From a phage: DNA of 555 bases. The stretch is from sequence record EF517112.1; one strand, written 5' to 3'. Both the position numbers and the translations under genes were made by a program. This document shows positions 1-555 of this stretch, piece by piece. Each line of letters begins with the position of its first letter. Position 1 is the first letter of the stretch. Below the pieces are notes generated by a model, which was not told where the DNA came from, made no database searches, and saw only the letters and a list, made by a program, of their open reading frames with translations.

Positions 1-5
1 TAGAG

Positions 6-20
6 TGCATAAAATATGCA
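6..20. other. Small perfect hairpin/palindrome (tgcata-aaa-tatgca) in the AT-rich region upstream of gene 19.5
   Basis: Positions 6-11 (tgcata) are the reverse complement of 15-20 (tatgca), giving a 6-bp stem and 3-nt loop. It sits in a 31% GC leader. Function unknown; too short for a canonical RNase III site. Confidence 0.4.
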
Positions 21-99
21 TAATGGTGTACCTAAAGTGACCTCTAAGAATGGTGATTATATTGTATTAGTATCACTTTAACTTAAGGACCAACATAAA

Positions 100-107
100 G
101 GGAGGAG
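100..107 (+). promoter_or_regulatory. Shine-Dalgarno / ribosome-binding site for gene 19.5
   Basis: The sequence gggaggag (100-107), with core GGAGG at 101-105, has a 6-nt spacer (agactc) before ATG 112. This is typical of strong T7 late-gene RBSs. Confidence 0.8.
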
Positions 108-111
108 ACTC

Positions 112-261
112 ATGTTCCGCTTATTGTTGAACCTACTGCGGCATAGAGTCACCTACCGATTTCTTGTGGTACTTTGTGTTGCCCTTGGGTACGCATCTCT
201 TACTGGAGACCTCAGTTCACTGGAGTCTGTCGTTTGCTCTATACTCACTTGTAGCGATTAG
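112..261 (+). CDS. 19.5: T7-type gene 19.5 protein: 49 aa small basic/hydrophobic protein of unknown function (MFRLLLNLLRHRVTYRFLVVLCVALGYASLTGDLSSLESVVCSILTCSD)
   Basis: ATG at 112-114 and in-frame TAG at 259-261, translated by hand codon by codon. GGAGG at 101-105 sits 6 nt upstream of the ATG. It is the only ORF in the window with a credible RBS. The protein and the surrounding DNA match my recollection of T7 gene 19.5 immediately left of the terminal repetition. The product has a basic N-terminus (R3, R10, H11, R12, R16), a hydrophobic core (about F17-L30) and an acidic, Cys-containing C-terminus (C22, C42, C47). Confidence 0.88.
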   Translation: MFRLLLNLLRHRVTYRFLVVLCVALGYASLTGDLSSLESVVCSILTCSD

Positions 262-343
262 GGTCTTTCTGACCGACTGATGGCTCACCGAGGGATTCAG
301 CGATATGATTGCATCACACCACTTCATCCCTATAGAGTCAAGT

Positions 344-400
344 CCTAAGGTATACCCATAAAGAGCCTCTAATGGTCTATCCTAAGGTCTATACCTAAAG
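344..400 (+). repeat. Two copies of an imperfect ~20-bp direct repeat (cctaaggtatacccataaag / cctaaggtctatacctaaag)
   Basis: 344-363 and 381-400 both read CCTAAGG + T(C) + TATACC + (CA)TAAAG, differing by small indels and substitutions. The copies are spaced 37 bp start to start. Confidence 0.7.
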
Positions 401-429
401 ATAGGCCATCCTATCAGTGTCACCTAAAG
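344..429 (+). repeat. ACCTAAAG-family short repeat array between gene 19.5 and the TR (SRR-like array of T7)
   Basis: Perfect ACCTAAAG at 393-400 and 422-429; one-mismatch variants CCATAAAG at 356-363 and CCTAAGG at 344-350 and 381-387. Further copies lie outside this span: ACCTAAAG at 30-37 and 540-547, ACATAAAG at 93-100, ACTTAAAG at 516-523. All are on the + strand. A specific 8-mer is expected about 0.02 times in 555 bp on both strands; four perfect copies are observed. Confidence 0.75.
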
Positions 430-468
430 AGGGTCTTAGAGAGGGCCTATGGAGTTCCTATAGGGTCC
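401..468. other. Cluster of mutually complementary short palindromes / inverted repeats (potential alternative stem-loops or cruciform)
   Basis: ataggcc (401-407) is the exact reverse complement of ggcctat (444-450). atagg (401-405) and cctat (410-414) form a local hairpin with a 4-nt loop. cctatagg (457-464) is a perfect 8-bp palindrome and can also pair with either of the others. agggtc is directly repeated at 430-435 and 462-467. Confidence 0.5.
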
Positions 469-500
469 TTTAAAATATACCATAAAAATCTGAGTGACTA

Positions 501-555
501 TCTCACAGTGTACGGACTTAAAGTTCCCCCATAGGGGGTACCTAAAGCCCAGCCA
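501..555. repeat. Left boundary and first 55 bp of the T7-type direct terminal repetition (TR, 160 bp in T7); truncated by the window edge
   Basis: tctcacagtgtacgga...gttcccccatagggggtacctaaagcccagcca matches the well-known T7 genome end sequence (TCTCACAGTGTACGGACCTAAAGTTCCCCCATAGGGGGTACCTAAAGCCCAGCCA) with one apparent difference at 518 (T where I recall C). The distance from the gene 19.5 start (389 bp) matches the T7 spacing I remember. Not verified by alignment. Confidence 0.8.
526..538. other. GC-clamp palindrome ccccc-ata-ggggg inside the terminal repetition, overlapping a GGTACC (KpnI) site at 537-542
   Basis: Five C (526-530) and five G (534-538) flank a 3-nt ATA centre. This is the only G/C homopolymer pair in the window and it lies within the TR. 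Confidence 0.5.

What the first reader, a model, noticed from the sequence alone, without database searches (positions are those of the whole stretch)
14..518. All apparent differences from the remembered T7 reference are G:C->A:T transitions (about 7 sites, 1.3%)
Against my recollection of T7, the window differs at 14 (G->A), 35 (G->A), 77 (C->T), 179 (C->T), 268 (C->T), 303 (G->A) and 518 (C->T), with no transversions or indels. A one-directional GC->AT spectrum is characteristic of alkylating-agent (nitrosoguanidine/EMS) or hydroxylamine mutagenesis, or of cytosine deamination, rather than ordinary divergence between natural relatives. Position 179 would change gene 19.5 codon 23 from GCT (Ala) to GTT (Val). 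Position 35 would turn a variant heptamer into consensus CCTAAAG, and 518 would turn a consensus heptamer inside the TR into CTTAAAG. The reference bases come from memory and individual sites may be wrong; the TR site (518) is the one I am most sure of.
Basis: inference. Interest (0 to 1): 0.55.

Follow-up and report, generated by a model that had tools for sequence, protein, structure and literature searches.

The report
Chemically mutagenised lab T7 right end
This 555-base stretch is the right end of laboratory phage T7 carrying seven G:C-to-A:T changes, the known fingerprint of deliberate nitrosoguanidine-type mutagenesis in experimental-evolution lines, so it is a real but already understood laboratory signature.

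Summary
The window aligns without gaps to T7 39278-39832 and differs at seven sites only: 14 G>A, 35 G>A, 77 C>T, 179 C>T, 268 C>T, 303 G>A and 518 C>T. All seven are G:C>A:T transitions. Under the spectrum separating T7 from its natural relative phiA1122 (33.5% GC>AT) the chance of 7/7 is about 5e-4. Under the spectrum of the heavily mutated T7 isolates K and P (94% GC>AT, 0.8-1.05% of sites) it is 0.65. I recall K and P as nitrosoguanidine lines, but no tool result confirmed that. Density (1.26%), lack of strand bias (3:4) and a 5'-purine before every mutated G also match K and P. 518T occurs in K/K115 and 268T in P/P82. Only 35A occurs in natural relatives. The resulting gp19.5 A23V protein is already in NCBI nr under three T7 accessions (ABR22985, ABR22986, ABR22991), with a further-mutated sibling (ABR22988). 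The window is therefore probably a short deposited record from a set of related mutagenised T7 lineages, possibly an experimental known phylogeny. The left-end repeat copy could not be checked. This is known and ordinary, so interest is low.

The parts
1..111 (+). Non-coding leader between the T7 promoter phiOR (T7 39229, just upstream of the window) and gene 19.5. It carries variants 14, 35 and 77.
   Evidence: NC_001604 annotation; alignment.
14..14 (.). G>A (T7 39291). It lies in the 3-nt loop of a 6-bp hairpin (6-11 / 15-20). The mutated G follows an A.
   Evidence: The fold energy is unchanged at -3.8 kcal/mol. No record in the 'phages' collection carries it.
35..35 (.). G>A (T7 39312). 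It changes CCTAGAG to the consensus heptamer CCTAAAG. The mutated G follows an A. It is the only variant that is also the state of natural relatives.
   Evidence: 27 natural T7-like phages have A here.
77..77 (.). C>T (T7 39354). The G is on the minus strand and follows an A.
   Evidence: phiA1122 and Bas102 have C. No record was found carrying T.
112..261 (+). Gene 19.5, a 49-aa small protein that the sources label hypothetical or DUF5465. Here it is the A23V variant.
   Evidence: The exact protein is in NCBI nr as ABR22985.1, ABR22986.1 and ABR22991.1.
179..179 (.). C>T (T7 39456). Gene 19.5 codon 23 changes from GCT to GTT, giving Ala23Val. The G is on the minus strand and follows an A.
   Evidence: Residue 23 is Ala in all 14 full-length 49-aa relatives listed and Val only in the ABR2298x T7 records.
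268..268 (.). C>T (T7 39545), 7 nt after the gene 19.5 stop codon. The G is on the minus strand and follows a G. It is shared with T7 isolates P and P82.
291..331 (.). Imperfect 19-nt inverted repeat (quasi-palindrome) with a 3-nt spacer. Variant 303 removes a G-C pair (303 pairs with 319).
   Evidence: I1. The ssDNA fold is -7.2 kcal/mol (z -2.8) in wild type and -4.0 (z -0.9) in the window.
303..303 (.). G>A (T7 39580). The mutated G follows a G. It lies in the left arm of the quasi-palindrome.
   Evidence: No record in the collection carries it.
329..547 (+). Array of CCTAAAG-like heptamers next to and inside the terminal repeat.
   Evidence: The whole window has 13 matches within one mismatch, against 2.4 expected. 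None of 200 shuffles reached 13.
501..555 (+). First 55 bp of the 160-bp right terminal repeat (T7 39778-39832).
   Evidence: The reference left and right TR copies are identical, and the window aligns to TR positions 1-55.
518..518 (.). C>T (T7 39795, TR position 18). It changes CCTAAAG to CTTAAAG. The G is on the minus strand and follows an A. It is shared with T7 isolates K and K115.

Best explanation
The window is the right-end region (T7 39278-39832) of a laboratory T7 lineage that was propagated for many generations under a G:C>A:T-specific chemical mutagen, with population bottlenecks that let mostly neutral or mildly harmful hits become fixed. The mutagen was most probably N-methyl-N'-nitro-N-nitrosoguanidine (MNNG). 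The mechanism comes from established knowledge: MNNG makes O6-methylguanine, which pairs with T at replication and gives G>A on whichever strand carried the G, preferentially at G preceded by a purine. The spectrum, the density, the context and the sharing with other mutated T7 lines are shown here. The identity of the mutagen and the provenance are inferred. The likely provenance is a short GenBank record from a set of related lineages, probably an experimental 'known phylogeny' of T7, deposited around 2007.
For: (1) The backbone is laboratory T7: 548 of 555 bases are identical and there are no indels, whereas the natural relative phiA1122 differs from the window at 21 sites. (2) All 7 changes are GC>AT. 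The probability is 4.7e-4 under the natural T7/phiA1122 spectrum and 0.65 under the spectrum of isolates K and P, a likelihood ratio of about 1400. (3) K and P have 412 and 304 substitutions, 93.9% and 94.1% GC>AT, at densities of 1.05% and 0.78%. The window has 1.26%, and 36% of K's and 14% of P's 555-bp windows hold at least 7 substitutions. (4) Every mutated G has a 5' purine (5 AG, 2 GG), against 80-84% in K and P and 51% genome background. (5) There is no strand bias: 3 G>A and 4 C>T here, 196:191 in K and 127:159 in P. (6) 518T is found only in K/K115 and 268T only in P/P82 among 50,697 phage records. 14A, 77T, 179T and 303A are found in none. (7) The exact A23V gp19.5 protein exists in NCBI nr under three T7 accessions. 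A sibling adds T31I and S48T, which looks like nested sharing among related lineages. No assembly contig encodes the protein, which fits short records, and the window's source is itself 555 bases long. (8) PMC6042481 states that GC>AT mutations dominate after nitrosoguanidine or hydroxylamine mutagenesis of T7 and that about four viable mutations per genome arise per infection in nitrosoguanidine. (9) The changes do not preserve local structure, since 303 weakens a hairpin. This fits drift under mutagenesis better than selection.
Against: The mutagen is inferred from only seven sites. The 5'-purine signal is weak against this window's own background (0.66; p=0.055), so hydroxylamine or EMS cannot be excluded. 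The source nucleotide record was not found in any DNA collection searched. The papers that would document it (Bull et al. 2003, Springman et al. 2010, Sousa et al. 2008) are not held. That K and P are nitrosoguanidine lines of the Hillis et al. phylogeny rests on my recollection of Bull et al. 2003. PMC1409768 confirms only that isolates named K, L, O and P belong to that phylogeny. Sharing one site with K and one with P is not explained by a single tree position.
Confidence: 0.85

Rival explanations
1. The lineage was mutagenised by a different GC>AT-specific chemical, either hydroxylamine treatment of virions or EMS, through repeated rounds. The outcome would be the same with a different agent.
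For: PMC6042481 says hydroxylamine also gives GC>AT-dominated mutations in T7, at up to about eight mutations per genome per heavy treatment. Seven sites cannot separate the agents firmly.
Against: Eight mutations per 40 kb is about 0.02% per round, so 1.26% would need dozens of rounds. All 7 mutated G follow a purine. The heavily mutated isolates K and P show the same bias (80-84%), and from my own knowledge nitrosoguanidine favours such sites. I know of no such bias for EMS or hydroxylamine. That last point rests on my knowledge and was not tested here.
Confidence: 0.08
2. The changes come from cytosine deamination, by an enzyme (an APOBEC/AID-type deaminase, for example one fused to T7 RNA polymerase) or by heat or spontaneous chemistry, acting on phage DNA.
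For: Deamination also gives only GC>AT. The window lies just downstream of the T7 promoter phiOR. Heat raises GC>AT rates in T4, according to work cited in PMC8923235.
Against: There is no strand bias (4 C>T, 3 G>A on the non-template strand). The base 5' of the mutated C is T in only 2 of 7 cases (A, T, C, G, T, A, C), while the 3' base is a pyrimidine in 7 of 7. Heat-adapted T7 clones (OL964739/40) show a different, mixed set of changes in this region. The match to isolates K and P, which I recall as MNNG lines, is closer on every measure.
Confidence: 0.04
3. The window is a natural wild relative of T7 and the seven differences are ordinary divergence.
For: 35A is the state found in 27 natural T7-like phages.
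Against: The probability of 7/7 GC>AT under the natural spectrum is 4.7e-4. Six of the seven variant bases occur in no natural phage record. Elsewhere the window is identical to the laboratory T7 sequence, whereas natural relatives differ at 20 or more sites with transversions and indels.
Confidence: 0.01
4. The changes are a sequencing or PCR artefact from a damaged (deaminated) template, not real mutations.
For: Template cytosine deamination gives GC>AT errors on both strands. The source appears to be a short, probably PCR-derived record.
Against: 179T (A23V) is present in four separate NCBI protein records. 518T and 268T are independently present in complete genomes of K/K115 and P/P82. A 1.26% consensus error rate is far above what direct sequencing of PCR products gives.
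Confidence: 0.02

Closest known systems
T7 isolates K and P and their recovery lines K115 and P82 (GenBank AY264775-AY264778; Bull et al. 2003, J Mol Evol 57:241; lineages of the Hillis et al. 1992 experimental phylogeny)
   Same: They have the same laboratory T7 backbone and the same spectrum (94% GC>AT). Density is similar (0.78-1.05% against 1.26%). They show the same 5'-purine bias and the same lack of strand bias. They share 518T (K) and 268T (P) with the window.
   Different: The window lacks K's other changes in this region (106, 277, 366) and P's (101, 329, 355, 534). It has five changes that neither of them has, including A23V, so it is not one of those four genomes or a close sister of either.
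T7 records encoding gp19.5 A23V in NCBI nr (ABR22985.1, ABR22986.1, ABR22991.1; sibling ABR22988.1)
   Same: The gene 19.5 product is identical to that of the window. The sibling carries the same A23V plus two more changes, as expected for nested lineages.
   Different: Only the proteins could be seen here. Attribution to Sousa, Ze-Ze, Silva and Tenreiro 2008 (Mol Phylogenet Evol 48:563), a known phylogeny of T7 variants evolved from a parental T7, is my inference and is not shown.
[quoted passage not shown] 2010, Genetics 184:221)
   Same: It uses the same phage and reports a GC>AT-dominated spectrum, as described in PMC6042481.
   Different: That study used large populations rather than bottlenecked lines. 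The paper could not be read here.
Other laboratory-evolved T7 clones (MZ375233-MZ375293 'T7_40L' and others; OL964739-41 heat-adapted)
   Same: They have the same backbone and also carry changes in this region.
   Different: Their changes are of mixed type (A>G, A>T, C>G, T>C, G>T) and cluster at 295 and 313-315, which looks like recurrent selection and not a GC>AT mutagen signature.

Membership tests
Chemically (MNNG-type) mutagenised, bottleneck-propagated laboratory T7 lineage | The backbone is laboratory T7, not a natural relative. | tested here: met
   548 of 555 bases are identical to NC_001604/V01146/AY264774 with no indels. phiA1122 differs from the window at 21 sites.
Chemically (MNNG-type) mutagenised, bottleneck-propagated laboratory T7 lineage | Substitutions are overwhelmingly G:C>A:T transitions (about 94% in K and P). 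| tested here: met
   7 of 7. K has 387/412 and P has 286/304. The natural null is 33.5%.
Chemically (MNNG-type) mutagenised, bottleneck-propagated laboratory T7 lineage | Substitution density is on the order of 1% of sites. | tested here: met
   7/555 = 1.26%, with a 95% Poisson range of 0.5-2.6%. K has 1.05% and P has 0.78%.
Chemically (MNNG-type) mutagenised, bottleneck-propagated laboratory T7 lineage | The mutated G is preferentially preceded by a purine (5'-RG). | tested here: inconclusive
   7 of 7 fit the bias, but the window background is 0.66, so p=0.055. K and P show 80% and 84% against a genome background of 51%.
Chemically (MNNG-type) mutagenised, bottleneck-propagated laboratory T7 lineage | Both strands are hit about equally. 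| tested here: met
   3 G>A and 4 C>T on the + strand. K has 196:191 and P has 127:159.
Chemically (MNNG-type) mutagenised, bottleneck-propagated laboratory T7 lineage | The strain has a documented history of mutagen exposure. | not testable with these tools
   The source nucleotide record was not found. The relevant papers are not held.
Member of an experimental known phylogeny of T7 (Hillis 1992 or Sousa 2008 type) | Mutations are shared in a nested way among sibling lineage records. | tested here: inconclusive
   A23V is in four nr protein records, one of which has two extra changes. The window shares one site with K and one with P, which no single tree position explains.
Cytosine-deaminase editing (APOBEC/AID type, or T7-RNA-polymerase-tethered) | There is a 5'-T (or WRC) context at the edited C and a bias to the non-template strand. 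| tested here: not met
   The 5' base of the mutated C is T in 2 of 7 cases, and the strand split is 4:3.
Natural Teseptimavirus variant | The substitution spectrum is mixed and variants are shared with other natural isolates. | tested here: not met
   7 of 7 changes are one-directional (p=4.7e-4). Only 35A is seen in natural phages.
T7 terminal repeat | The left and right 160-bp copies are identical, so 518T should also be at left-end position 18. | not testable with these tools
   The window has no left end. In K and K115 the deposited left end starts at TR position 25, so position 18 is absent there. The other TR mutations (K position 60, P position 34) are present in both copies.

The most novel reading that the evidence does not exclude
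If the window comes from an experiment independent of the K and P lines, then 518T (in a terminal-repeat heptamer) and 268T arose twice independently. That would mark them either as strong alkylation hotspots or as changes tolerated or favoured in the concatemer-junction and packaging region of T7. The G>A at 35 would be a reversion to the CCTAAAG state of natural relatives. Under uniform mutation, the chance of sharing at least one site with each of K and P is 0.011-0.025. However, K and P already share about 2.6 times more GC>AT sites with each other than chance predicts: 15 observed against about 5.7 expected (my arithmetic). Ordinary hotspot heterogeneity may therefore be enough.
Probability: 0.2. 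Interest if true: 0.3.

Novelty: already known. Interest (0 to 1): 0.12.

Why it matters
It matters mainly for bookkeeping. The sequence should be treated as a deliberately mutagenised laboratory derivative of T7, not as natural variation. Its seven differences carry information about a mutagen's spectrum, not about phage biology or selection. The case also shows that a directional spectrum in as few as seven sites can be recognised and calibrated against real mutagenised genomes. The only slightly open point is whether the recurrent hits at 268 and 518 reflect hotspots or selection near the terminal repeat.

Tried and rejected
(1) I looked for the source record. Megablast against 50,697 phage records gave at best wild-type T7 at 98.7%. 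Exact variant-bearing k-mers found nothing in viral contigs, metagenome contigs or genome contigs. No contig on record encodes the A23V protein. Only the exact-protein look-up succeeded. (2) I searched the papers for the ABR2298x/A9XLB3 accessions and for the MZ3752xx clones and found nothing relevant. Springman 2010, Bull 2013 and Sousa 2008 are not held. (3) I tested whether the MZ375xxx and OL9647xx lab-evolved T7 clones are siblings of the window. I rejected this because they share none of the seven variants and have a mixed spectrum. (4) I tested whether variants 35 and 77 are a compensatory pair, since together they make a perfect 8-bp inverted repeat (33-40 / 73-80). I rejected this as chance. 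I estimate two to three perfect 8-mers are expected in 555 bases, the fold is not better than shuffles (z -1.0), the wild type folds differently, and natural relatives do not covary. (5) An Rfam scan and an ORF list found nothing beyond gene 19.5. (6) I tried to check TR position 18 in the left copy of K and K115. Their deposited left ends begin at TR position 25.

Full report
WHAT THE WINDOW IS. Megablast against 50,697 phage records places the window, without gaps, on T7 coordinates 39278-39832. According to the NC_001604 annotation, it starts about 50 bases downstream of the late promoter phiOR (39229). It contains gene 19.5 (window 112-261) and runs into the right terminal repeat (TR), whose first 55 bases are window 501-555. 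Gene 19.5 is the only ORF that matches an annotated T7 gene, and no Rfam family matches. CCTAAAG-like heptamers are strongly enriched, with 13 matches within one mismatch against 2.4 expected.

CHECK OF THE OBSERVATION. Position 179 changes gene 19.5 codon 23 from GCT to GTT (A23V). Position 35 turns CCTAGAG into CCTAAAG. Position 518 turns a CCTAAAG at TR position 18 into CTTAAAG.

IS IT MORE THAN CHANCE? For a natural-divergence null I aligned T7 with its close natural relative phiA1122 genome-wide. That gave 1728 substitutions in well-aligned context: 33.5% GC>AT, 32.2% AT>GC and 34.3% transversions. The probability that seven of seven are GC>AT is 4.7e-4. For a mutagenesis model I aligned the complete genomes of T7 isolates K (AY264775) and P (AY264777) with the wild type from the same deposit (AY264774). 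K has 412 substitutions, 93.9% of them GC>AT, at a density of 1.05%. P has 304, 94.1% GC>AT, at 0.78%. Under that spectrum seven of seven has a probability of 0.65, a likelihood ratio of about 1400 over natural divergence. The window's density of 1.26% is ordinary for such lines: 36% of K's and 14% of P's 555-bp windows hold seven or more substitutions. Extrapolated, the lineage would carry roughly 200-1000 substitutions genome-wide. That figure is inference.

WHICH KIND OF MUTAGEN? In K and P the mutated G is preceded by a purine in 80% and 84% of cases, against 51% for all G:C sites of the genome. From my own knowledge, this is the flanking-base bias described for N-methyl-N'-nitro-N-nitrosoguanidine (MNNG) in E. 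coli lacI. In the window all seven mutated G follow a purine (five AG, two GG). The window's own background is 0.66, so this is only p=0.055. The changes split 3 G>A to 4 C>T on the + strand, and K and P are similarly balanced. The base 5' of the mutated C is T in only two of seven cases. A single-strand cytosine deaminase would be expected to give a strand bias and a TC-type context, and neither is seen. PMC6042481 states that GC>AT mutations dominate after nitrosoguanidine or hydroxylamine mutagenesis of T7. It gives about four viable mutations per genome per infection in nitrosoguanidine, and up to eight per genome for a heavy hydroxylamine treatment. A density above 1% therefore needs long, cumulative exposure with fixation, as in bottlenecked lines.

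RELATION TO OTHER SEQUENCES. I searched with seven concatenated 41-mers, each centred on one variant, so that every 28-base megablast seed had to contain the variant base. The result: 518T is present only in K and K115, 268T only in P and P82, and 35A in 27 natural T7-like phages. No record was found carrying 14A, 77T, 179T or 303A. K and P do not share the window's other changes, and the window lacks theirs, so it is a different lineage. Under uniform mutation, the chance of sharing at least one site with each of K and P is 0.011-0.025. However, K and P share 15 GC>AT sites with each other where about 5.7 are expected (my arithmetic). Hotspots, selection or shared early history are therefore normal in this system. 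Other lab-evolved T7 clones (MZ3752xx, OL9647xx) carry none of the seven variants and show mixed-type changes.

PROVENANCE. No DNA collection held the window itself and no assembly contig encodes its gp19.5. An exact-sequence look-up did find the A23V protein in NCBI nr and UniRef under three T7 accessions: ABR22985.1, ABR22986.1 and ABR22991.1 (UniRef100_A9XLB3). A sibling, ABR22988.1, carries A23V plus T31I and S48T. Residue 23 is Ala in all 14 full-length 49-aa relatives listed. Several T7 records that share one induced change, with one of them further changed, and with no genome-length contig, fit a batch of short records from related mutagenised lineages. The window's source is itself only 555 bases long. 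PMC1409768 confirms that isolates named K, L, O and P belong to the Hillis et al. 1992 experimental T7 phylogeny. That AY264775-8 are those lines, grown in nitrosoguanidine, is my recollection of Bull et al. 2003, which is not held. A second T7 known phylogeny exists (Sousa et al. 2008). It is my best guess for the ABR2298x batch, but that attribution is inference.

CONSEQUENCES OF THE INDIVIDUAL CHANGES. Six of the seven changes are non-coding. The seventh is a conservative Ala>Val in a small protein annotated only as hypothetical, which from my own knowledge is non-essential. Position 14 sits in the loop of a 6-bp hairpin and leaves its energy unchanged. Position 303 removes a G-C pair from a 19-nt quasi-palindrome (291-309 / 313-331) and weakens its single-strand fold from -7.2 to -4.0 kcal/mol. 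Positions 35 and 77 together create a perfect 8-bp inverted repeat, but this is at chance level and is not supported by natural covariation. Nothing suggests that the set was selected. It looks like fixed mutational load.

THE TERMINAL-REPEAT QUESTION. The window has no left end. In K and K115, which have 518T at the right end, the deposited left end starts at TR position 25, so position 18 is missing. Their other TR mutations (K position 60, P position 34) are present in both copies. From established T7 biology, both copies are regenerated from the single copy at the concatemer junction, so concordance is expected.

VERDICT. The explanation is a known laboratory phenomenon, and the sequence variant is very probably already deposited. 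Interest is low. The only mildly open point is why 268 and 518 were hit in more than one line.

Noticed in passing
window 295 and 313-315 (T7 39572, 39590-39592): Lab-evolved T7 clones from two accession series, none of them the window, carry recurrent changes of mixed type here. T7_40L has 295 A>G, 313 A>T and 315 C>G. T7_50L has 313 A>T and 315 C>G. T7_160L has 314 T>C. OL964740 differs from the window, which is wild type here, at 295, 313 and 315, and OL964739 differs at 314. All of 313-315 lie in the loop-proximal pairs of the right arm of the quasi-palindrome 291-331. This looks like a recurrently selected site near the concatemer junction.
   Followed up: partly
window 33-40 and 73-80: Variants 35 and 77 both fall in arms of one inverted repeat and together make it a perfect 8-bp repeat. 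In the wild type it has a G-T pair and an A-C mismatch. I judged this to be chance.
   Followed up: yes
window 35: Wild-type T7 is the odd one out here. 27 natural T7-like phages have A (CCTAAAG), so the window's G>A restores the state of the natural relatives.
   Followed up: partly
L010, L012, L021 (left ends of AY264775, AY264777, AY264776): The deposited 'complete genomes' of K, P and K115 start about 23-24 bases inside the terminal repeat. K also has an N near the start. The outermost left-end bases were therefore not determined.
   Followed up: yes
protein ABR22988.1 (P0002), gene 19.5 codons 31 and 48 (window 202-204, 253-255): The sibling record adds T31I, which is a C>T change and fits the spectrum. 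It also adds S48T, where AGC>ACC needs a G>C transversion, a rare class (about 3%) in K and P.
   Followed up: no
cluster of wild-type gp19.5: gp19.5-family proteins are annotated in bacterial assemblies: WP_353846506.1 from Staphylococcus hyicus, seen on three contigs of up to 39.7 kb, and WP_161954300.1 from E. coli. These are probably T7-like phage contamination or carry-over in those assemblies.
   Followed up: no
L017-L019 (AY264774, AY264775, AY264777 whole genomes): K and P share 24 substitutions relative to AY264774. They include non-GC>AT changes (11062-3 GT>TG, 15095 G>T, 39938 T>A) that look like differences in the ancestral stock rather than induced mutations. PMC6042481 reports 15094 G>T in a laboratory T7+ stock.
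   Followed up: partly
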